Source: Escherichia phage vB_EcoM_SHAK7704. Taken from it: 44,446 bases of DNA. This document shows, one piece after another, positions 2,054 to 43,960 of this stretch (within the stretch, counting starts at the first letter, position 1; each line of letters opens with the position of its first letter). The DNA is taken from the sequence record OR594181; one strand, 5' to 3'. The position numbers were made by a program, and so were the translations under genes. The notes beneath the pieces are model-generated. The model had not been told where the DNA came from. It worked only from the letters and a program-made list of their open reading frames with translations, and made no database searches.

Positions 2054-2335
2054 ATGGCTAATAATTATAGTGATCAACCACTAACAGGTCGATATGATCG
2101 AAAGCAGGAGACACCTGTAAGTGAAGCGTTAATGCTCCCTGTTGTTACAGAGGAGTCTATTAAGAAGAAAGCCAATGTTATCAATGATGCAACCAAATCT
2201 GGTAAACAGAAAGCATCAATGGTGTGTCGTCCTGTAGGTGGCACTCTTGAGATTGCCATTGCTACTGGCAGCAGAGAGGATGCAGATTGGTTGTCTGTTA
2301 AAATGGATGGCGTTGGTCTTATTACACCGGCTTAA
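2054..2335 (+). CDS. Hypothetical protein, paralog A of a three-gene family
   Basis: 93 aa; AAGGAG RBS; shares an INxxxxSGKQ...IAxGS..D.W domain with the next two ORFs. Confidence 0.6.
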   Translation: MANNYSDQPLTGRYDRKQETPVSEALMLPVVTEESIKKKANVINDATKSGKQKASMVCRPVGGTLEIAIATGSREDADWLSVKMDGVGLITPA

Positions 2336-2351
2336 TAAAGGAGAAGATAAT

Positions 2352-2636
2352 ATGTCTAAGTATGGCGATGCAGGTACTACTGGTCAGGCTTTTCGTGTAA
2401 AAGCAGTACAAACTATTGCAACTGCAATCCCTATGCCTATCGTGGCAGAAGCTGACCTTAAAAAGAAAGATCATCCAATTAATATTGAACACCTATCTGG
2501 TAAGCAGAAAGGTGCTATGGTGGTTGTAGATAAAGGAGATAATAGCCTTTATATTGCTATTGCACGTGGTTCTGCACCAACTGACCAGTGGGATGTAACT
2601 ACTATGGAAGCTGTACCTGTAACACCAGGAGCTTAA
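2352..2636 (+). CDS. Hypothetical protein, paralog B
   Basis: 94 aa from ATG 2352 with AAGGAG RBS; same conserved domain as paralogs A and C. Confidence 0.6.
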   Translation: MSKYGDAGTTGQAFRVKAVQTIATAIPMPIVAEADLKKKDHPINIEHLSGKQKGAMVVVDKGDNSLYIAIARGSAPTDQWDVTTMEAVPVTPGA

Positions 2637-2637
2637 T

Positions 2638-3327
2638 ATGCTGGGAGTAACAGGACAACGCAATAAGAATGTAGCCACCAAAGTGGTGGCTGATTTAGCT
2701 ACTGCTGCTACTGTCGAGGAATTACGAAACCAACATAGCTCTATTAACCGTGCTGACCTTTCTGGTAAACAAGAAGGTTCCGCCGTTATTATTAAGAAAG
2801 AAGATGGGAATTATTCTATCTTTGTAGCAACAGGAAGCAAGCCGACTGATGTGTGGAAAGAGTTGTCTCCAACAATACCAGAGCAAGAGATGCCTGCTGA
2901 ATATATTGATATGATTGATGTTCAAATTCATCAAGATTCTGCAAGCAACTTACATATAGACTCTTCTCGCACTAGTTTAATACAAACACCAATGTGGGAT
3001 ACTGAAGGTGAGTTGTTATTCCGTAATACACTAAGTGCAACATGTTCTTGTACTATTCTTGTTGATGGTGCGTCTGGTGTTCGTCAGGATTTTACTTTTA
3101 AGATTAATGGACTTTTAGAGCAGGAAGAGCAGTATTATGATATTGACACACTTATGTGCTCTATTCACTCTGCAACAACAACTAATGGCCTTACCTTGTG
3201 TATGCCAGATGCTAAAAGTGCAAAGACTAATAAAGTGGTAGTTAAGATCGACACTATGCAGTCATTAGCTATGAGCTTTGATCTTAACTTCCTTGTAGAA
3301 TGGACGTCACCAACGAGGTTACTATAA
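2638..3327 (+). CDS. Hypothetical protein, paralog C (family domain plus ~140-aa C-terminal extension)
   Basis: 229 aa; N-terminal domain homologous to A and B; stop overlaps the endolysin start (TAATG). Confidence 0.6.
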   Translation: MLGVTGQRNKNVATKVVADLATAATVEELRNQHSSINRADLSGKQEGSAVIIKKEDGNYSIFVATGSKPTDVWKELSPTIPEQEMPAEYIDMIDVQIHQDSASNLHIDSSRTSLIQTPMWDTEGELLFRNTLSATCSCTILVDGASGVRQDFTFKINGLLEQEEQYYDIDTLMCSIHSATTTNGLTLCMPDAKSAKTNKVVVKIDTMQSLAMSFDLNFLVEWTSPTRLL

Positions 3328-3671
3328 TGCTAAATCAATACTTCAAGCGTAAAGAATTTGCTTGCCGTTGTGGGTGCGGTACATCCACTGTTGATGCTGA
3401 GTTACTACAGGTAGTAACAGATGTGCGTGAGCACTTTGGTACTCCTGTTGTTATCACTTCTGGTCATCGCTGCGCCAAGCACAATGCTAATGTAGGTGGA
3501 GCTAAGAACTCTATGCATCTTACTGGTAAGGCTGCTGACATTAAGGTACGAGGCATCTTACCTTCTGATGTACATAAGTACCTTACTGATAAGTACCAAG
3601 GCAAGTATGGTATTGGTAAATATACCTCCTTTACTCATATTGATGTACGTGACGGGTGTGCACGATGGTAG
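3327..3671 (+). CDS. Endolysin, zinc peptidase M15-like fold
   Basis: 114 aa from ATG 3327 (ORF track starts at 3300 but has no RBS); SGHRC...H...D...H motif; sits beside the spanins. Confidence 0.7.
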   Translation: MLNQYFKRKEFACRCGCGTSTVDAELLQVVTDVREHFGTPVVITSGHRCAKHNANVGGAKNSMHLTGKAADIKVRGILPSDVHKYLTDKYQGKYGIGKYTSFTHIDVRDGCARW

Positions 3672-3779
3672 GTTGTGTTGCATGGTGTGAACGCATGGTT
3701 GCTAAGGCTTCAGAGGAAGGCAACTATGAAGATTGGCAGAACTACTCAACTTTATTAGCTCAATGGAAAGGGAGATGCA

Positions 3780-3929
3780 ATGAAAAAGCTGTTCAAATCT
3801 AAGAAGGTTGTAGGTGCACTAGTTGCATTGGCAATTGCTCTTGTTTCTGTAGGTCTTGGTGTAGACCTTGGCTCTGGCACGGAATCCTCTGTGACAGATG
3901 TGGTCTGCCAAGTGATCACCTGTGAATAA
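3780..3929 (+). CDS. Small hydrophobic peptide (49 aa), possible lysis regulator
   Basis: Not in the ORF track (under 60 aa); AAGGGAG RBS 9 nt upstream; MKKLFKSKKVVGALVALAIALVSVGLGV hydrophobic segment. Confidence 0.4.
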   Translation: MKKLFKSKKVVGALVALAIALVSVGLGVDLGSGTESSVTDVVCQVITCE

Positions 3930-4143
3930 GTTTCTAGAAGTGCTGGCAGGTCTTATTGGCCTGCTTGTCTCTGCTAAGAAGAAACAAGAAGAGAAGGAGG
4001 CACAAAGTGAAGCGAATCATGCTAGCGACAACCCTGCTGATTGGTTCGCTGATCATTTCAGGGTGTCAGACGGCGTTACCAGAGAATCCAAAGGTGAAGC
4101 CTCTGAAGCCGACGCTTACGGCAGTCTACGAGGTGGACGATAA
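3922..4143 (+). CDS. i-spanin (Rz-like), candidate
   Basis: 73 aa, GTG start; N-terminal transmembrane segment FLEVLAGLIGLLVSA then charged domain; overlaps the o-spanin ORF. Confidence 0.45.
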   Translation: MNKFLEVLAGLIGLLVSAKKKQEEKEAQSEANHASDNPADWFADHFRVSDGVTRESKGEASEADAYGSLRGGR

Positions 4144-4216
4144 AGTCTGCTTCAGTAAGCCTGACGCTACAAAATTAGGTCTGTACATTCTCTCGCTAGA
4201 ACGCGGGTATAATTAA
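4007..4216 (+). CDS. o-spanin (Rz1-like outer-membrane lipoprotein)
   Basis: GTG 4007 with GGAGG 6 nt upstream (alternative ATG 4019); signal peptide with lipobox IISGC; proline-rich mature part; +1 frame over the i-spanin. Confidence 0.6.
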   Translation: MKRIMLATTLLIGSLIISGCQTALPENPKVKPLKPTLTAVYEVDDKVCFSKPDATKLGLYILSLERGYN

Positions 4217-4245
4217 TACATAGTTTTATGTATCAGTGTCTTACG

Positions 4246-4263
4246 ATTTACTGGACACTATAG
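4246..4263 (+). promoter_or_regulatory. Phage RNAP promoter ATTTACTGGACACTATAG
   Basis: Exact consensus 18-mer upstream of the tailspike genes. Confidence 0.7.
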
Positions 4264-4347
4264 AAGAGATAAGATAGTGCCGTTCTTTTGAGCGGCCTAT
4301 TACTAGCCAATCTTCATAGGGAGGATTGGGAAGTAATAGGAGAGTAT

Positions 4348-4683
4348 ATGGCTAAGTTAACTAAACCCAAGACAACTGGCTTACTACATAGAGATACTGT
4401 ACTAGCTACATTATTGGATAATTTACTATCTAAAAGGCGTGTTACATTTGAAGGTGTAGTTCCAAGTGAAGATACTAAAATTGAGATAGAAGTACCTGCA
4501 ACAGGAGATTTAGATTCTTCGTGGGCATCACTTGTATCATTAAGTACACCTACACTTTGTACAGCTTGGATTACTAAAGTGTCAGATACTAGATTAGAAG
4601 TACATGTGTTCCATACAGCACAAGTTGAAATAGACATAGATGTAGATGTTTACATTCTAGGTAAACACATTGTCAGTGCGTAA
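4348..4683 (+). CDS. Short tailspike-like protein (111 aa) in the second-tailspike position
   Basis: ATG 4348 with GGGAGG/AGGAG RBS; sits directly upstream of the endosialidase, where K1-5-type phages carry a second tailspike. Confidence 0.5.
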   Translation: MAKLTKPKTTGLLHRDTVLATLLDNLLSKRRVTFEGVVPSEDTKIEIEVPATGDLDSSWASLVSLSTPTLCTAWITKVSDTRLEVHVFHTAQVEIDIDVDVYILGKHIVSA

Positions 4684-4750
4684 GCACTGCTTTTCGCGCA
4701 ACTTTTCTTAAAGGTTATCATGATGGTAGCCTTTCAGAAAAGGAGGTTAC

Positions 4751-7186
4751 ATGATTCAAAGACTAGGTTCTTCATTAGTTAAATTCAAGAGTAAAATAGC
4801 AGGTGCAATCTGGCGTAACTTGGATGACAAGCTCACCGAGGTTGTATCGCTTAAAGATTTTGGAGCCAAAGGTGATGGTAAGACAAACGACCAAGATGCA
4901 GTAAATGCAGCGATGGCTTCAGGTAAGAGAATTGACGGTGCTGGTGCTACTTACAAAGTATCATCTTTACCTGATATGGAGCGATTCTATAACACCCGCT
5001 TCGTATGGGAACGTTTAGCAGGTCAACCTCTTTACTATGTGAGTAAAGGTTTTATCAATGGTGAACTATATAAAATCACGGATAACCCTTATTACAATGC
5101 TTGGCCTCAAGACAAAGCGTTTGTATATGAGAACGTGATATATGCACCTTACATGGGTAGTGACCGTCATGGTGTTAGTCGTCTGCATGTATCATGGGTT
5201 AAGTCTGGTGACGATGGTCAAACATGGTCTACTCCAGAGTGGTTAACTGATCTGCATCCAGATTACCCTACAGTGAACTATCATTGTATGAGTATGGGTG
5301 TATGTCGCAACCGTCTGTTTGCCATGATTGAAACACGTACTTTAGCCAAGAACGAACTAACCAATTGTGCATTGTGGGATCGTCCTATGTCTCGTAGTCT
5401 GCATCTTACTGGTGGTATCACTAAGGCTGCAAATCAGCGTTATGCAACAATCCATGTACCTGATCACGGATTATTCGTGGGCGATTTTGTTAGCTTCTCT
5501 AATTCTGCGGTAACAGGTGTAACTGGTGATATGAAAGTTGCAACAGTTATAGATAAGGACAACTTCACGGTTCTTACAGCCAATCAGCAGACCTCTGATT
5601 TGAACAATGCTGGAAAGAATTGGCACATGGGCACTTCCTTCCATAAGTCTCCATGGCGTAAGACAGATCTTGGCCTGATACCTCGTGTTACTGAAGTTCA
5701 TAGCTTTGCTACTATTGATAACAATGGCTTTGTTATGGGTTATCACCAAGGCGACGTAGCTCCACGCGAAGTTGGTCTTTTCTACTTCCCTGATGCTTTT
5801 AACAATCCATCTAATTATGTTCGTCGTCAGATACCATCTGAGTACGAACCGGATGCGGCAGAGCCATGCATCAAGTACTATGACGGTGTGTTATACCTTA
5901 TCACTCGTGGTACTCGTGGTGACAGGCTTGGAAGCTCTTTGCATCGCAGTAGAGATATAGGTCAAACTTGGGAGTCACTAAGATTTCCACATAATGTGCA
6001 TCATACTACTTTACCGTTTGCTAAGGTAGGAGATGATCTTATTATGTTTGGTTCAGAACGTGCAGAAAATGAATGGGAAGCAGGTGCACCTGATGATCGT
6101 TACAAGGCATCTTATCCCCGCACCTTCTATGCACGATTGAATGTAAACAAGTGGAGTGCAGATGACATTGAATGGGTTAACATCACAGACCAAATCTATC
6201 AGGGTGACATTGTTAACTCCAGTGTAGGTGTAGGTTCGGTGGTAGTTAAAGATAGTTACATTTACTATATCTTTGGTGGTGAAAACCATTTCAACCCAAT
6301 GACTTATGGTGACAACAAAGATAAAGACCCATTTATTGGACATGGACACCCTACTGATATATACTGCTATAAGATGCAGATTGCAAATGACAGTCGTGTA
6401 TCTCGTAAGTTTACATATGGTGCAACTCCTGGTCAGGCTATACCTACTTTCATGGGTACTGATGGTATTCGCACTATTCCTGCTCCACTTCACTTATCAG
6501 GAGAGGTAGTTGCCGCAGATATGACTGTCGAACACCTTACCTTGAAGGCAAGTACAAGTGCTAATATTCGCTCAGAGATGCTGATGGAAGGTGAATATGG
6601 GTTCATTGGTAAGACTATACCAACGGATAACCCAACCGCCCAACGTGTTATCATCTCTGGTGGAGAGGGTACAGCAGCAGATACCGGTGCGCAAATTACC
6701 TTACATGGAGCAGGTTCTAGCACTTCTAGACGCGCAGTATATAATGCCAATGAGCACTTGTTCCAAAGTGGAGCTATCATGCCATACAATGATAACGTGT
6801 ATCCTGCTGGCGGCCCTCGTAATAGATTCACTACTATCCATCTTACAAGTGACCCTATTATTACGTCTGATGCCACTCATAAGTATGGATCACAAGGTAT
6901 TGATGAGAGTGTACTAAAGGCATGGGGTAAGGTTAGCTTCAAGCAGTACAAGTTGATTGGTGAGATGTCTCGTGGTGTGCACCACACTCACTTTGGTGTA
7001 TTGGCACAAGACATTGTAGCTGCTTTTGCATCCGAAGGGTTAGATGCAATCGACTTCGGCATTGTCTCCTTCGAAGAAGGTCAGTTTGGTGTTAGATATA
7101 GTGAAATCTTAATCTTGGAGGCTGCTTATACTCGCTATCGTTTAGACAAGTTAGAGGAGATGTATGCCACTAATAAAAGCAGTTAA
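4751..7186 (+). CDS. Endosialidase tailspike (endo-N-acetylneuraminidase) with C-terminal intramolecular chaperone domain
   Basis: 811 aa; sequence recalled as near-identical to K1E/K1-5 endosialidase; C-terminal chaperone-domain motifs; strong AAAGGAGG RBS. Confidence 0.9.
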   Translation: MIQRLGSSLVKFKSKIAGAIWRNLDDKLTEVVSLKDFGAKGDGKTNDQDAVNAAMASGKRIDGAGATYKVSSLPDMERFYNTRFVWERLAGQPLYYVSKGFINGELYKITDNPYYNAWPQDKAFVYENVIYAPYMGSDRHGVSRLHVSWVKSGDDGQTWSTPEWLTDLHPDYPTVNYHCMSMGVCRNRLFAMIETRTLAKNELTNCALWDRPMSRSLHLTGGITKAANQRYATIHVPDHGLFVGDFVSFSNSAVTGVTGDMKVATVIDKDNFTVLTANQQTSDLNNAGKNWHMGTSFHKSPWRKTDLGLIPRVTEVHSFATIDNNGFVMGYHQGDVAPREVGLFYFPDAFNNPSNYVRRQIPSEYEPDAAEPCIKYYDGVLYLITRGTRGDRLGSSLHRSRDIGQTWESLRFPHNVHHTTLPFAKVGDDLIMFGSERAENEWEAGAPDDRYKASYPRTFYARLNVNKWSADDIEWVNITDQIYQGDIVNSSVGVGSVVVKDSYIYYIFGGENHFNPMTYGDNKDKDPFIGHGHPTDIYCYKMQIANDSRVSRKFTYGATPGQAIPTFMGTDGIRTIPAPLHLSGEVVAADMTVEHLTLKASTSANIRSEMLMEGEYGFIGKTIPTDNPTAQRVIISGGEGTAADTGAQITLHGAGSSTSRRAVYNANEHLFQSGAIMPYNDNVYPAGGPRNRFTTIHLTSDPIITSDATHKYGSQGIDESVLKAWGKVSFKQYKLIGEMSRGVHHTHFGVLAQDIVAAFASEGLDAIDFGIVSFEEGQFGVRYSEILILEAAYTRYRLDKLEEMYATNKSS

Positions 7187-7397
7187 GCAAGCGGCTGTAC
7201 GCCAGAACACAGAAGAACTTATTCAATCAGGACGTGACCATAAGCAGGCTTATGCCATTGCTAAGGATGTACAACGTCGTGCCGGATTTCCCCCATATGG
7301 GGGCCGCGCTGCGGTTGGCTTGGGAATTGGGCTAGGCTGGGCCGTCTTCGACGGGTGGCCTAGAGCTTGCCGAGGTCTGCTCTTAGTGGCTGCACAA

Positions 7398-7531
7398 GGA
7401 GAACGCCTAGGAAGCGCTAGGGCACGCCTTAGTATTGGACAAGGTGATTGCCTTAGTGCAACCGCTTAGGGCTTACACAGGCCGTTTTAGGGCCATTCCT
7501 GAGCGTTTGACAAGGTGGGCGTGGGTGGGCT
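7398..7531 (+). repeat. Direct repeat copy 1 (134 bp), putative right terminal repeat
   Basis: Identical base-for-base to 7532-7665 in direct tandem. Confidence 0.7.
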
Positions 7532-7665
7532 GGAGAACGCCTAGGAAGCGCTAGGGCACGCCTTAGTATTGGACAAGGTGATTGCCTTAGTGCAACCGCT
7601 TAGGGCTTACACAGGCCGTTTTAGGGCCATTCCTGAGCGTTTGACAAGGTGGGCGTGGGTGGGCT
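7532..7665 (+). repeat. Direct repeat copy 2 (134 bp), putative left terminal repeat
   Basis: Identical to 7398-7531; followed at 7666 by ATCTGTT. Confidence 0.7.
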
Positions 7666-7716
7666 ATCTGTTCGTTTCGTTCACTCCGCTTGCGCTCCGT
7701 TCACTCGCTCACGTGT

Positions 7717-7845
7717 ACCTTAGGTTATTCCTTGATGGATGGCTTAGGTTAGCCTTAGTGGGCTGCCTTAGTTAAAGCCTTAGTGCTTAGCTTAGTATCA
7801 ACTTAGTAGTGTACCTTAGTAAGTCTTAGTGTCTTCTCTTAGTGA
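7717..7845 (+). repeat. Array of about 10 short CTTAGT-type repeats next to the terminal repeat
   Basis: ccttagg, gcttagg, ccttagt, gcttagt, acttagt, tcttagt recur every 8-15 bp. Confidence 0.6.
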
Positions 7846-8027
7846 TTGCATAGCTAAAGCTATAAGATGCAATTAGGTCGCGGTCGGTAGACCGCTAAGA
7901 GTAGGTAATAGTAATAAGATGCAGTAGGAGGAACACCAGAAACCTAGCCAACCTAGCCTATCCTAGCTCTGTATCTATTGCTTTCCTTAGTCTCACATGT
8001 TAGACAACCTATGTTTATCTTAGTAGT

Positions 8028-8043
8028 TGTGACATGTATCACA
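8028..8043 (+). promoter_or_regulatory. CRP-like site TGTGA-N6-TCACA
   Basis: tgtgacatgtatcaca matches both CRP half-sites; centred about 72 bp upstream of the predicted early start site. Confidence 0.3.
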
Positions 8044-8072
8044 TAAATAATCTATCTTAGTGAAACTTAGTG

Positions 8073-8101
8073 TTGACATAGGCAATCAACTGGTATACAT
8101 T
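8073..8101 (+). promoter_or_regulatory. Host sigma70-type early promoter
   Basis: TTGACA at 8073-8078, 17-bp spacer, TACATT at 8096-8101; about 400 bp inside the left genome end. Confidence 0.5.
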
Positions 8102-8251
8102 AGCAATCACTGAGACGGACCTAGCAAGCTGTCTCAGGTTATAAGCAGGAGAATTGATGCGTAAGCCATAGCTAGTGGATGTAGTCGCATGAAGGCTTGA
8201 GTAAGGGGCCGCTTAATACCTTCTTCCTCTGGAGACAACGCTTATAACACT

Positions 8252-8264
8252 GCTCTTTAACAAT
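8252..8264 (+). promoter_or_regulatory. Conserved early intergenic 13-mer GCTCTTTAACAAT (copy 1), candidate RNase III site
   Basis: One of five near-identical copies, each 40-70 nt upstream of an early gene start and flanked by imperfect dyads. Confidence 0.4.
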
Positions 8265-8322
8265 CTGCTTAGTGTAACCTATGTATGCCGTGGTTAATTA
8301 CTTATTGAATGAAGGATTAACT

Positions 8323-42600: not shown

Positions 42601-42998
42601 AAGCCTATGTGAACTCTATTGGGAGAGAAGACCAAGATGAATATTTGGAAGAGAAGTTATCGCCTAAAGGGTTGGCCTTTGGTGCAATGGGTATGATGAG
42701 TACAACTGCTGTATTTAGTCTAGGTGGAGATTTCTTAGGTGGCCTAGGTGTTCTACCTTCTGAGTTAGTACAATCCCGTTATGAGGCTGGCTTTCAGACT
42801 AAGGGTTTGATAGACCAAATACCACTAGTAGGTGTTGGTCAAGATGCATATCGTTTAGCAGATTCTATAACTAAATATGCAGAGGGTGATACAGAAGGTG
42901 TAGATGTGGCACGTAGGGCTTTACGCTTAGTGCCTCTAACTAATGTAATAGGAATCCAGAACGCATTGCGTTATGGCTTAGATGAACTGGAGGATTGA
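39690..42998 (+). CDS. Large internal virion (ejection) protein (gp16-like)
   Basis: 1102 aa; largest structural gene before the tail adaptor. Confidence 0.75.
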   Translation: MEQDIKTNWAGYVQSTPEPFSIEAAPVSAPTIRQRNELQEQVLEAKADADILGAVGAAFQNEWLAFGGKRWYDRATADFTPQPDFEIQPEQREALRFKYGTDMMQTITEGVRSEDELNFRIQNADEDLERNKRIAQAGWVGSVATIGAAVLDPVGWVASIPTGGAAKVGLVGRAVRGAIAAGVSNAAIESVLVQGDMTRDLDDIMVALGSGMAMGGVIGAVARGRATKLSEQGDDRAASIVRSADAGDRYVRAVADDSIGAMRVKGEEVLTEGAFDVSSKGEDLLKTLQREGNAIDMTPRRWAGTLSALGTVVHSSQDASVRGLGARLFESPQGLGMQKASASLMQNTNLNRLKSADMNRFNDGFDLWLKENNINPVAGHTNSHYVQQYNEKVWEAVRIGMDESTPKSIRMAAEGQQAMYREALALRQRSGEAGFEKVKADDKYMPDIFDSMKARRQFSMHDKEDIIELFSRAYQNGSRKVPKEVADDIARAQVNRVADATLTGQLSFEKAMSGQTKAEYEALMRKAGFSDEEIEKMVEALDNKETRDNISNRAKMSLGLDVTQEYNGIRMRDFMNTNVEELTDNYMKEAAGGAALARQGFSTYQAALNAIDLVERNARNAAKDTKAHAQFEAESAKIRQSEPDYKKAQEKIEELKKRLKLKEKDEAAGLAIDEEIRQMREGLRLIMGKSIDSNPQDLSTKMLRRGRDITGVLRLGQMGFAQLGELANFMGEFGIAATTMALGKQFRFTSKALRNGDGFFRDKNLAEVERMVGYIGEDNWLTTKGARPDEFGDVTTVRGMMAHFDQSMNSIRRAQTNLSLFRMAQGSLERMTNRQIALSFIDHLEGKKIIPQKKLEELGLTQEFMTNLQKHYDANSKGSGLLGFDTMPYAMGETLANAIRRKSGLIIQRNFIGDEGIWMNKALGKTFAQLKSFSLVSGEKQFGRGIRHDKIGLAKKTAYGFALGSIVYAAKAYVNSIGREDQDEYLEEKLSPKGLAFGAMGMMSTTAVFSLGGDFLGGLGVLPSELVQSRYEAGFQTKGLIDQIPLVGVGQDAYRLADSITKYAEGDTEGVDVARRALRLVPLTNVIGIQNALRYGLDELED

Positions 42999-43960
42999 TG
43001 AGTTATACTTTCACAGAACATATAGCCAACGGTACGCAAGTAACCTATCCCTTTAGATTTGCTGGCAGGGATAAAGGCTATCTTCGTGCCTCAGATGTGA
43101 TAGTGGAATCTCTTCAAGGTAACACTTGGATTGAGGTTACATCTGGCTGGCAATTAACTGGTACGCATCAAATCACTTTTGATGTAGCACCTGTTGCAGG
43201 TTTGAAGTTCCGTATTCGAAGGGAAGTACAAAAGGAGTATCCATACGCTGAGTTTGACCGTGGTGTTACCTTGGATATGAAGTCTTTAAATGGTTCTTTC
43301 ATTCATATACTGGAGATTACACAGGAGTTACTTGATGGGTTTTATCCAGAAGGATACTTCATTAAGCAGAATGTAAGCTGGGGCGGCAATAAGATTACTG
43401 ACCTAGCTGATGGTGAGAATCCAAAAGATGCAGTAAATAAATCACAGCTAGATGCTATCGACAAGAAGCATACTGATTGGAACTCTGCACAAGATATAGA
43501 GATTGCTGGTATTAAGAGAGGAATGGTGTCTGGTGTATCTCATCGCACTATTCCTTGGTATATGGTCGCCTCCGGTGGAGAGCAAATCATTCGACCACCT
43601 TACTCATTTGATGATGCTATGGTGTTTATAAACGGTGTATTCCAGCATGAACTAGCAGGTGCAGTATCAGTGGGGTATAATGTTATAACCCTGTCCGAGC
43701 CATTACAGGCTGGGGATGAAGTTTATGTGCTTATAGGTAGTCGCTTAACCCCACCTACAAGTGCGGATACTATCCTCTTTACACAAGCAGTGAGTGAAGG
43801 TACACAATCTATCGACATTGTAACGGCTTTCCAACGTCTTGATGTATACTTGGATGGCCTGTATCAACCTAATAATGCTTATGAAATCGTAGGGTCTACT
43901 ATCACTTTCAGTGAGCCATTACCTGAGTGTGTCGTAAGTATGAAGCTACAACTAGTGTAA
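42998..43960 (+). CDS. Tailspike adaptor protein (T7 gp17 N-terminal-domain-like)
   Basis: 320 aa; ATG 42998 overlapping the upstream TGA; position before holin as in SP6-like phages. Confidence 0.7.
   Translation: MSYTFTEHIANGTQVTYPFRFAGRDKGYLRASDVIVESLQGNTWIEVTSGWQLTGTHQITFDVAPVAGLKFRIRREVQKEYPYAEFDRGVTLDMKSLNGSFIHILEITQELLDGFYPEGYFIKQNVSWGGNKITDLADGENPKDAVNKSQLDAIDKKHTDWNSAQDIEIAGIKRGMVSGVSHRTIPWYMVASGGEQIIRPPYSFDDAMVFINGVFQHELAGAVSVGYNVITLSEPLQAGDEVYVLIGSRLTPPTSADTILFTQAVSEGTQSIDIVTAFQRLDVYLDGLYQPNNAYEIVGSTITFSEPLPECVVSMKLQLV

What the first reader, a model, noticed from the sequence alone, without database searches (positions are those of the whole stretch)
4751..7186. Endosialidase tailspike identifies the host as K1-capsulated E. 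coli
The 811-aa protein matches the K1E/K1-5 endosialidase as I recall it and ends with the intramolecular chaperone domain that is cleaved off after trimer folding. It lacks the T7 gp17-like N-terminal domain, so it must dock via the separate adaptor (42998-43960).
Basis: partly seen in the sequence, partly recalled or inferred. Interest (0 to 1): 0.55.

Follow-up and report, generated by a model that had tools for sequence, protein, structure and literature searches.

The report
K1 capsule-degrading phage tailspike (endosialidase)
The gene is an ordinary, already well-described phage tailspike enzyme that chews through the polysialic-acid (K1) capsule of E. coli and is hung on the phage tail by a separate adaptor protein, as in phage K1E.

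Summary
Window 4751..7186 (+) is an intact 811-aa ORF with the full endosialidase domain set above Pfam thresholds. It is 99.1% identical to the phage fTuEco01 tailspike, 97.8% to PK1A, 89.6% to K1E gp47 and 88.8% to K1-5 gp47. It matches the solved endoNF structures at E=0.

All catalytic residues reported for K1F are conserved, as are the five self-cleavage residues (D681, R692, T705, S706, K711). The two substitutions that distinguish the PK1A2 mutant from PK1A are absent.

The protein has no T7 gp17-like anchor, whereas the K1F control does. The 320-aa product of 42998..43960 carries that anchor and is 98.8% identical to K1E gp37, annotated as the endosialidase adaptor.

The first 11 residues (MIQRLGSSLVK) recur on unrelated tailspikes next to adaptor homologues in 14 of 15 related loci.

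A 111-aa K1E-gp46-like stub sits where K1-5 has its K5 lyase, so this is a single-tailspike, K1E-type phage.

Refinements: the gene is mosaic. Its head is K1E-like, but its stalk and chaperone are PK1A-type (71-73% to K1E). The K1 capsule is necessary for infection but may not be sufficient.

Verdict: already known, low interest.

The parts
4751..7186 (+). Endosialidase tailspike gene (gp47 orthologue), 811 aa plus stop
   Evidence: ORF. 99.1% aa identity to fTuEco01, 97.8% to PK1A, 89.6% to K1E gp47. PDB endoNF E=0. Pfam domain set.
4751..4864 (+). N-terminal docking region (aa 1-38). The first 11 residues, MIQRLGSSLVK (4751-4783), are the conserved undecapeptide.
   Evidence: 100% identical to K1E and K1-5. 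Similar to aa 3-48 of the Klebsiella phage Kp7 tail fibre 7y5s (identified). The peptide is present on non-endosialidase tailspikes beside adaptor homologues in related loci, and in SP6-type proteins the identity stops after residue 11. The role of the undecapeptide is stated in PMC6872550.
4865..5056 (+). End_N_terminal domain (aa 39-102)
   Evidence: Pfam PF12218, 120.6 bits.
5057..6385 (+). Catalytic six-bladed beta-propeller (aa 103-545), with the beta-barrel domain inserted at aa 214-296 (5390-5638)
   Evidence: Pfam PF12217 736.7 bits and PF12195 151.3 bits. H140, R339, E371, R386 and R437 correspond to K1F H350, R549, E581, R596 and R647 (residue list from PMC12632334).
6386..6865 (+). 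Stalk (End_tail_spike, aa 546-705), PK1A-type variant
   Evidence: Pfam PF12219, 283.3 bits. 98% identical to PK1A but 71% to K1E and 63% to K1F. The nucleotide identity to K1E falls to 58-80% from gene position 1651.
6866..7183 (+). C-terminal intramolecular chaperone domain (Peptidase_S74, aa 706-811); predicted self-cleavage at Thr705/Ser706
   Evidence: Pfam PF13884, 35.6 bits (cut-off 22). PDB 3gw6 2e-58 and 3gud 1e-10. D681, R692, T705, S706 and K711 are conserved. Mechanism from PMC4690869.
42998..43960 (+). Tail adaptor (gp37 orthologue), 320 aa: T7 gp17-like anchor (aa 4-154) followed by two internally duplicated small domains
   Evidence: 98.8% identical to K1E gp37 'endosialidase adaptor protein'. 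Pfam Phage_T7_tail 27.6 bits. PDB 7y22_e 'tail adaptor protein' 2e-84 over the full length. Internal repeat aa 183-236 versus 257-308, reached by 0 of 500 shuffles.
4348..4683 (+). 111-aa gp46-type stub occupying the position of the K1-5 K5 lyase; keeps the MAKLTKP heptapeptide
   Evidence: 97.3% identical to K1E gp46. The first 45 aa are 39% identical to the N-terminus of the K1-5 K5 lyase, and the first 7 are identical. Synteny with K1E and K1-5.
4246..4267 (+). Phage RNA polymerase promoter (SP6/K1E type) in front of the gp46-gp47 cassette
   Evidence: One of two zero-mismatch copies of the searched 22-mer (itself taken from this site); ten sites in the window, all on the + strand, with 0 expected in shuffles.
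4740..4746 (+). Shine-Dalgarno sequence AAGGAGG of the tailspike gene
   Evidence: Read directly from the sequence.

Best explanation
The window is a complete, circularly rotated genome of a K1E-like podovirus (genus Vectrevirus, SP6 group). ORF 4751..7186 is its only full-length tailspike. It is a homotrimeric endo-alpha-2,8-sialidase (endo-N-acetylneuraminidase) that binds and cleaves the polysialic-acid K1 capsule, so the phage can reach the outer membrane.

The C-terminal 106 residues act as an intramolecular chaperone. They drive folding of the trimeric stalk and are then released by self-cleavage at Ser706.

The mature spike has no tail-binding domain of its own. Its short N-terminal peptide (MIQRLGSSLVK...) docks on the 320-aa adaptor encoded at 42998..43960, and that adaptor binds the tail through a T7 gp17-like anchor domain. 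The adaptor's second site is presumably taken by the 111-aa gp46 stub (4348..4683) rather than by a second enzyme. The phage is therefore K1-specific, like K1E, and not dual-specific like K1-5.

Shown here: sequence identity, domain content, conserved catalytic and cleavage residues, absence of the anchor from the spike and its presence in the adaptor, and recurrence of the docking peptide. Inferred from homology: enzymatic activity, cleavage, docking and host.
For: Identity and domains.

Catalytic residues: H140, R339, E371, R386 and R437 are conserved, as are Q120, K200, K375 and N489. The list of functionally critical K1F residues comes from PMC12632334.

The only two substitutions where the PK1A2 mutant phage (mutPK1A2 record) departs from PK1A and from every other endosialidase compared here are H417Y and N489D. 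This protein has the wild-type H417 and N489. PMC5715158 contrasts PK1A, which has an active endosialidase and strips polysialic acid, with PK1A2, which binds it.

Self-cleavage set: D681, R692, T705, S706 and K711 (mechanism).

No anchor in gp47, versus the K1F control.

Adaptor: 98.8% identical to K1E gp37; Phage_T7_tail domain; 7y22 'tail adaptor protein' 2e-84.

The literature states that K1-5 gp37 binds gp46 and gp47 through a conserved hepta- and undecapeptide (PMC6872550; PMC13352976).

In 15 IMG/VR loci with an adaptor homologue, 14 have a downstream ORF that begins with the same peptide (13 start M[IL]QRL; in L021 the ORF start was not established). Only 4 of these are endosialidases. 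The others are pectate-lyase-like, beta-helix, Exo_endo_phos or unassigned.

Synteny with K1E, K1-5 and fTuEco01.

Recorded hosts of the closest phages are K1 strains.
Against: Nothing contradicts this explanation. It has three limits.

First, no wet-lab activity, cleavage or docking data exist for this exact protein.

Second, the reported T4 gp10-like nature of the adaptor could not be reproduced here. hhalign against T4 gp10 gave probability 0.5%, and the single-sequence AlphaFold model was unusable at pLDDT 34.

Third, the stalk and chaperone are only 71-73% identical to K1E, so fine properties such as processivity and strain range cannot be transferred from K1E. One position that I recall (from memory, not confirmed in a paper here) as part of the K1F stalk binding site, S848, is Ala643 here and in PK1A.
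Confidence: 0.95

Rival explanations
1. The tailspike binds polysialic acid but is catalytically dead, as in the host-range mutant PK1A2. It would then act as a lectin rather than a depolymerase.
For: The protein belongs to the PK1A sequence type (97.8% to PK1A, 97.7% to mutPK1A2). Such a phenotype exists in this lineage (PMC5715158).
Against: The two positions where mutPK1A2 departs from PK1A and from all other endosialidases compared (H417Y, N489D) are wild-type here. N489 corresponds to K1F N699, a loss-of-function hotspot. All listed catalytic residues are conserved.
Confidence: 0.02
2. The enzyme targets a different host or capsule. Examples are another polysialic-acid-bearing bacterium or the alternating alpha-2,8/2,9 K92 polymer. 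The host would then not be K1 E. coli.
For: Polysialic acid capsules are not unique to E. coli K1 (own knowledge). The stalk, which a K1F mutational scan calls a tuning knob for specificity, is the diverged part of this protein.
Against: The genome backbone is 94-98% identical to coliphages isolated on K1 E. coli. Phages with a 96-98.5% identical tailspike have recorded K1 E. coli hosts. The propeller is 97-98% identical to K1E and PK1A.
Confidence: 0.02
3. The spike attaches to the tail directly, or through a protein other than the 42998..43960 product. That ORF would then be a vestigial tail fibre without an adaptor role.
For: Docking was not observed here. Many records annotate the adaptor merely as 'tail fiber protein'. 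Its T4 gp10-like domain was not detected by my tests.
Against: It is 98.8% identical to K1E gp37, annotated as the endosialidase adaptor. Papers attribute this role to cryo-EM of K1E and K1-5. A full-length homologue is deposited as 'tail adaptor protein' (7y22). The adaptor gene and the N-terminal peptide co-occur in 14 of 15 related loci whatever the catalytic domain. gp47 has no anchor domain.
Confidence: 0.01

Closest known systems
Endosialidase of coliphages PK1A (ABP02011) and vB_EcoA_fTuEco01 (QVW53780)
   Same: Same length (811 aa) and same domain order. 97.8% and 99.1% aa identity over the full length, including the stalk and chaperone. Same genomic position.
   Different: 7 substitutions relative to fTuEco01 and 18 relative to PK1A, none at catalytic or cleavage residues. 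The genome backbone is a different mosaic: the structural region is closest to 'K1E' KY435490 at 98.1%, versus 94.9% to fTuEco01.
K1E gp47 (endoNE) and K1-5 gp47
   Same: Same architecture, same 811 aa, and the same adaptor-dependent attachment. The N-terminal 102 aa are 100% identical and the propeller 97-98%. The cleavage serine is at the same position, 706.
   Different: The stalk is 71% and the chaperone 73% identical. Nucleotide identity falls to 58-80% over gene positions 1651-2400, so this is a recombinant C-terminal module. K1-5 also has a full K5 lyase at the gp46 position, whereas this phage, like K1E, has only the 111-aa stub.
K1F gp17 (endoNF; PDB 1v0e, 3gvl, 3gw6)
   Same: Same catalytic core (propeller 93% identical). 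All catalytic and self-cleavage residues are conserved.
   Different: K1F carries its own T7 gp17-like anchor plus a Tail_spike_N domain (about 245 extra N-terminal residues) and binds the tail directly. The K1F chaperone is only 32% identical and has a ~45-aa insertion that is absent here.
Klebsiella phage Kp7 tail adaptor and tail fibre (PDB 7y22, 7y5s)
   Same: The adaptor is homologous over its full length (2e-84). The fibre N-terminus (aa 3-48) is homologous to gp47 aa 2-47. This suggests the same adaptor-plus-docking-peptide design.
   Different: The receptor-binding and enzymatic part of the Kp7 fibre is unrelated to the endosialidase. I could not confirm that 7y22 is from Kp7; this is inferred from the adjacent PDB codes.

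Membership tests
Phage endosialidase (endo-N-acetylneuraminidase; GH58 by my recollection of the CAZy class; Pfam End_* domain set) | Six-bladed beta-propeller catalytic domain with an inserted beta-barrel and the N-terminal extension | tested here: met
   PF12217 736.7 bits, PF12195 151.3 bits and PF12218 120.6 bits, all far above their cut-offs. endoNF structures match at E=0 over aa 38-705.
Phage endosialidase (endo-N-acetylneuraminidase; GH58 by my recollection of the CAZy class; Pfam End_* domain set) | Active-site residues (K1F H350, R549, E581, R596, R647) | tested here: met
   H140, R339, E371, R386 and R437 are all conserved. The residue list is from PMC12632334.
Phage endosialidase (endo-N-acetylneuraminidase; GH58 by my recollection of the CAZy class; Pfam End_* domain set) | Trimeric stalk (End_tail_spike) that follows the propeller | tested here: met
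   PF12219 283.3 bits, aa 546-705. R607, Y616, R632, Q648 and R661 are conserved. K1F S848 is Ala643 here.
Phage endosialidase (endo-N-acetylneuraminidase; GH58 by my recollection of the CAZy class; Pfam End_* domain set) | [quoted passage not shown] | not testable with these tools
   Needs an enzyme assay. It is inferred from 97.8% identity to the PK1A enzyme, which PMC5715158 uses as the catalytically active control, and from 89.6% identity to K1E gp47, annotated as the polysialic-acid depolymerase.
Peptidase S74 C-terminal intramolecular chaperone domain | Domain match at the C-terminus, directly after the stalk | tested here: met
   PF13884 35.6 bits (cut-off 22), aa 706-763. PDB 3gw6 2e-58 and 3gud 1.1e-10.
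Peptidase S74 C-terminal intramolecular chaperone domain | Scissile Ser, Lys five residues downstream, preceding Thr, and the upstream Arg and Asp that sense folding | tested here: met
   S706, K711, T705, R692 and D681 align with K1F S911, K916, T910, R897 and D886. The mechanism is described in PMC4690869.
Peptidase S74 C-terminal intramolecular chaperone domain | Actual release of the ~12 kDa C-terminal fragment after trimerisation | not testable with these tools
   Needs SDS-PAGE or mass spectrometry of wild-type versus S706A protein.
SP6/K1E/K1-5-type adaptor-mounted tailspike system | Separate short adaptor protein with a T7 gp17-like tail anchor and no receptor-binding domain | tested here: met
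   320 aa; Phage_T7_tail aa 4-154, 27.6 bits (cut-off 25.2). 98.8% identical to K1E gp37. It matches only positions 8-321 of the 781-position tail-fibre family phrog_2710. 7y22 'tail adaptor protein' 2e-84.
SP6/K1E/K1-5-type adaptor-mounted tailspike system | T4 gp10-like branching domain(s) in the adaptor that provide two attachment sites | tested here: inconclusive
   hhalign of an 11-sequence adaptor profile against T4 gp10 gave probability 0.5%. The single-sequence AlphaFold2 model had pLDDT 34 and was unusable. Both tests were weak. An internal duplication (aa 183-236 versus 257-308; 0 of 500 shuffles reach the score) fits two repeated modules. The T4gp10-like assignment is taken from PMC6872550.
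SP6/K1E/K1-5-type adaptor-mounted tailspike system | Tailspike without its own anchor that begins with the conserved undecapeptide | tested here: met
   No Phage_T7_tail or Tail_spike_N domain in gp47, whereas both are present in K1F gp17. MIQRLGSSLVK is identical to K1E, K1-5 and SP6-type proteins, and the identity ends at residue 11 in the SP6 type.
SP6/K1E/K1-5-type adaptor-mounted tailspike system | Second-site partner that begins with the conserved heptapeptide | tested here: met
   The 111-aa ORF 4348..4683 begins MAKLTKP, as does the K1-5 K5 lyase. It is a stub, as in K1E, and not an enzyme.
SP6/K1E/K1-5-type adaptor-mounted tailspike system | Physical docking of the spike on the adaptor in the virion | not testable with these tools
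   Needs cryo-EM, pull-down or a multimer structure prediction. It is inferred from orthology with K1E.
T7/K1F-type self-anchored tail fibre or spike | N-terminal T7 gp17-like anchor domain within the receptor-binding protein itself | tested here: not met
   Absent from gp47. The K1F gp17 positive control scores 59.7 bits.

The most novel reading that the evidence does not exclude
The PK1A-type stalk-plus-chaperone module (aa 546-811) is only 71-73% identical to K1E, while the N-terminal 102 aa are identical to K1E and the propeller is 98% identical. This module may be an exchangeable cassette that changes processivity or determines which K1 strains are infected (for example O-antigen or capsule-modification variants), rather than a neutral variant. 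This would fit the K1F mutational-scan finding that the stalk is a 'tuning knob' for host discrimination. The cassette itself is already in public databases, so only its functional meaning would be new.
Probability: 0.2. Interest if true: 0.3.

Novelty: already known. Interest (0 to 1): 0.1.

Why it matters
The result gives a reliable annotation and a host-receptor prediction (K1 capsule) for this genome. That is useful for phage-therapy or typing work on neonatal-meningitis and urosepsis E. coli. It adds no new biology. The enzyme family, its self-cleaving chaperone and the adaptor-mounted architecture have been described for K1E and K1-5, and this exact 811-aa sequence is already present in public assemblies.

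Tried and rejected
(1) Profile comparison of an 11-sequence adaptor alignment with T4 gp10 (hhalign) gave probability 0.5% and E=0.12, so there was no signal. The profile was shallow (Neff 1.6), so this says nothing either way.

(2) AlphaFold2 on the adaptor without an alignment gave mean pLDDT 34 and pTM 0.24. The model was unusable, so I ran no fold search. I chose not to spend a 13-CPU-hour homologue search on a deeper alignment, because 98.8% identity to K1E gp37 already settles orthology.

(3) I could not retrieve Leiman et al. 2007 (PMID 17585937) or Schwarzer et al. 2009 (PMC2666599). Their content is cited only through papers I could read.

(4) The generic terminator scan of 3600-8300 found two terminator-like sites (one inside the tailspike gene, one on the minus strand), no more than in shuffled sequence, and none in the right place to end tailspike transcription.

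(5) I considered and rejected a catalytically dead PK1A2-like spike. I also rejected a second full-length tailspike elsewhere in the window: the gp46 position holds only the 111-aa stub. Not every large ORF in the window was profile-scanned, however.

(6) I considered co-variation between the adaptor's C-terminal half and the type of gp46 partner. I rejected it because locus L010 combines a K1-5-like adaptor (75% identical) with a K1E-type stub N-terminus.
Full report
**Observation**

Window 4751..7186 (+) is an uninterrupted ATG-initiated ORF of 811 aa. A Shine-Dalgarno sequence, AAGGAGG, lies at 4740-4746. A phage-polymerase promoter 22-mer lies at 4246-4267; ten such sites occur in the window, all on the + strand, and none is expected by chance.

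megablast against 50,697 phage records finds 73 records with a match, 34 of which cover at least 80% of the gene. The best are vB_EcoA_fTuEco01 'tail spike endosialidase' (98.5% nt), KAW1A4500 and the UTI89UKE2/3 phages (98%), PK1A endosialidase (96.1%), and K1E gp47 and K1-5 'K1 endosialidase' (88.4-88.5%).

**What the protein is**

Pfam places five endosialidase-specific domains in canonical order, all above the curated cut-offs:
- End_N_terminal, aa 39-102
- End_beta_propel, aa 103-545 (737 bits)
- End_beta_barrel, inserted at aa 214-296
- End_tail_spike, aa 546-705
- Peptidase_S74, aa 706-763

Against solved structures, aa 38-705 match the K1F endosialidase catalytic fragment (1v0e, 3gvl) at E=0. 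Residues 589-764 match 3gw6, the K1F entry that contains the chaperone domain, at 2e-58.

In a MAFFT alignment with K1E, K1-5, PK1A, mutPK1A2, fTuEco01 and K1F, amino-acid identity is:
- 99.1% to fTuEco01
- 97.8% to PK1A
- 89.6% to K1E
- 88.8% to K1-5
- 74.9% to the shared part of K1F gp17

A recent deep mutational scan of K1F lists H350, R549, E581, R596 and R647 as catalytic and intolerant to substitution, and also flags Q330, K585 and N699 (PMC12632334). All of these are conserved here, as H140, R339, E371, R386, R437, Q120, K375 and N489.

Only two substitutions separate the PK1A2 mutant phage from PK1A and from every other sequence compared: H417Y and N489D. Neither is present here. PMC5715158 describes PK1A as carrying an active endosialidase and PK1A2 as binding polysialic acid. 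I therefore predict an active enzyme.

**C-terminal chaperone**

The mechanism described for K1F, transposed to T5 pb1 in PMC4690869, has three parts. A serine is activated by a lysine five residues downstream. The peptide bond after the preceding threonine is cut. An arginine from a neighbouring chain together with an aspartate forms the oxyanion hole, so cleavage depends on correct trimer folding.

The corresponding residues here are D681, R692, T705, S706 and K711. They align with K1F D886, R897, T910, S911 and K916. Cleavage itself is inferred.

**Attachment**

gp47 has no Phage_T7_tail domain. K1F gp17, used as a positive control, has both Phage_T7_tail (59.7 bits) and Tail_spike_N. The alignment shows that about 205 N-terminal residues of K1F have no counterpart here.

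It is 98.8% identical to K1E gp37, which its record annotates as 'tail protein/adaptor protein; endosialidase adaptor protein'. It also matches the deposited 'tail adaptor protein' 7y22_e over its full length (2e-84).

gp47 residues 2-47 resemble residues 3-48 of 7y5s, the Klebsiella phage Kp7 tail fibre. Papers I could read state that K1-5 gp37 binds the K5 lyase (gp46) and the endosialidase (gp47) through a conserved hepta- and undecapeptide, citing cryo-EM by Leiman et al. 2007 (PMC6872550; PMC13352976).

I tested the modularity of the docking peptide directly:
- Of 15 IMG/VR loci that encode an adaptor homologue (60-99% identical), 14 have a downstream ORF with the same N-terminal peptide. 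Thirteen begin M[IL]QRL; in L021 the match starts at IQRL and the ORF start was not established.
- Only 4 of the 14 are endosialidases.
- The others are a 727-aa pectate-lyase-like protein with its own S74 chaperone, beta-helix proteins, SP6-type 504-aa proteins with no Pfam match, and a 289-aa Exo_endo_phos protein.
- In the SP6-type proteins, identity to gp47 stops exactly after residue 11 (MIQRLGSSLVK).

This is what a portable docking peptide would look like. Physical docking remains an inference.

**One spike or two**

Where K1-5 has its 632-aa K5 lyase, this genome has a 111-aa ORF (4348..4683), as K1E does. It is 97.3% identical to K1E gp46. It shares with the lyase only the N-terminal MAKLTKP heptapeptide and weak similarity over about 45 residues. 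The phage therefore has the K1E single-enzyme configuration.

The adaptor's C-terminal half contains an internal duplication: aa 183-236 versus 257-308 score 54, against 23 +/- 4.7 for shuffles, and 0 of 500 shuffles reach the observed score. This is compatible with two attachment modules.

My attempts to confirm the reported T4 gp10-like fold failed for lack of sensitivity. hhalign gave probability 0.5%, and the single-sequence AlphaFold model had pLDDT 34.

**Genome context and host**

The window is a rotated complete genome that starts at the large terminase ATG. Gene order is the same as in K1E, K1-5 and fTuEco01: adaptor, holin, small terminase, large terminase, small genes, gp46 stub, gp47, gp48, genome end.

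The structural half is 98.1% identical to a 'K1E' isolate grown on IHE3034. The early half is about 94-95% identical to phages isolated on K1 strains. Records with a tailspike at least 94% identical list hosts O18ac:K1:H7, K1 strain EH954 and APEC 45, and some phages are named after UTI89.

The prediction of a K1-capsulated E. coli host is therefore strong. [quoted passage not shown]

**Refinement: mosaic structure**

By domain, the protein compares as follows:
- N-terminus (aa 1-102): 100% identical to K1E and K1-5
- Propeller: 97-98% identical to K1E and PK1A, and 93% even to the T7-like phage K1F
- Stalk: 71% identical to K1E, 98% to PK1A
- Chaperone: 73% identical to K1E, 99% to PK1A

In 150-nt windows, identity to K1E drops from 94-100% to 58-80% between gene positions 1651 and 2400, while identity to PK1A stays at 96-100%. 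The gene is thus a known PK1A-type recombinant of the K1E gene.

**Novelty**

The exact 811-aa sequence is already present in public assemblies (Logan/ENA, 6 contigs), in a 90% cluster with PK1A, fTuEco01, vB_EcoP_B/C/K and ULINTec7. The adaptor and stub sequences are also already deposited.

**Verdict**

This is an already known system: a correct, useful annotation with low discovery value.

Noticed in passing
window 7398-7665: There is a perfect 134-nt tandem duplication (7398-7531 and 7532-7665). Both copies match the last ~133 nt of the K1E genome. This looks like the two direct terminal repeats joined head to tail, so the window is a rotated full genome that starts at the large terminase ATG, and the physical ends lie about 345 nt after the tailspike stop.
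   Followed up: partly
window 7164-7469: The gp48 homologue overlaps the tailspike 3' end and reads 101 aa instead of the 49-51 aa seen in fTuEco01, K1-5 and mutPK1A2. Identity to relatives stops after 7283, and about 225 bp present in K1E are missing, so the ORF runs on into the terminal-repeat region. It may be a real deletion or an assembly artefact.
   Followed up: partly
window 1898, 4246, 14370, 16898, 21319, 22088, 23234, 26402, 31483, 44239 (22-nt sites, + strand): Ten SP6/K1E-type phage RNA polymerase promoter sites (ATTTACTGGACACTATAGAAGA with at most 3 mismatches) occur, all on the + strand, with none expected by chance. One lies 80 nt upstream of the gp46-stub/tailspike cassette.
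   Followed up: no
window 2054-3327: Three adjacent ORFs (2054-2335, 2238-2636, 2638-3327) all match the same PHROG families (phrog_2725, annotated 'acetyl-CoA acetyltransferase', and phrog_32357). They form a tandem paralogue cluster between terminase and endolysin. A 229-aa member is also present in fTuEco01, but no counterpart is annotated at this position in K1E or K1-5. None has a Pfam match.
   Followed up: no
L018:17614-18483 (IMGVR_UViG_2974597675_000001): In a related SP6-like contig, the protein that carries the tailspike docking peptide (MIQRLGSKLVK...) is only 289 aa long and has an Endonuclease/Exonuclease/phosphatase (Exo_endo_phos) domain (44 bits) instead of a beta-helix or propeller. 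This is an unusual enzyme class for a tailspike position.
   Followed up: no
window 43544-43921 (adaptor aa 183-308): The adaptor contains an internal duplication (aa 183-236 versus 257-308) that shares a V-x-x-[ND]-G-[VL]-[FY]-Q motif. The alignment score is 54, against 23 +/- 4.7 for shuffles. It may correspond to the two attachment sites.
   Followed up: partly
window 6677-6679 (gp47 Ala643): The position equivalent to K1F Ser848 is Ala in this protein and in PK1A, but Ser in K1E and K1F. I recall Ser848 as part of the stalk polysialic-acid binding site, but I did not confirm that in a paper here.
   Followed up: no
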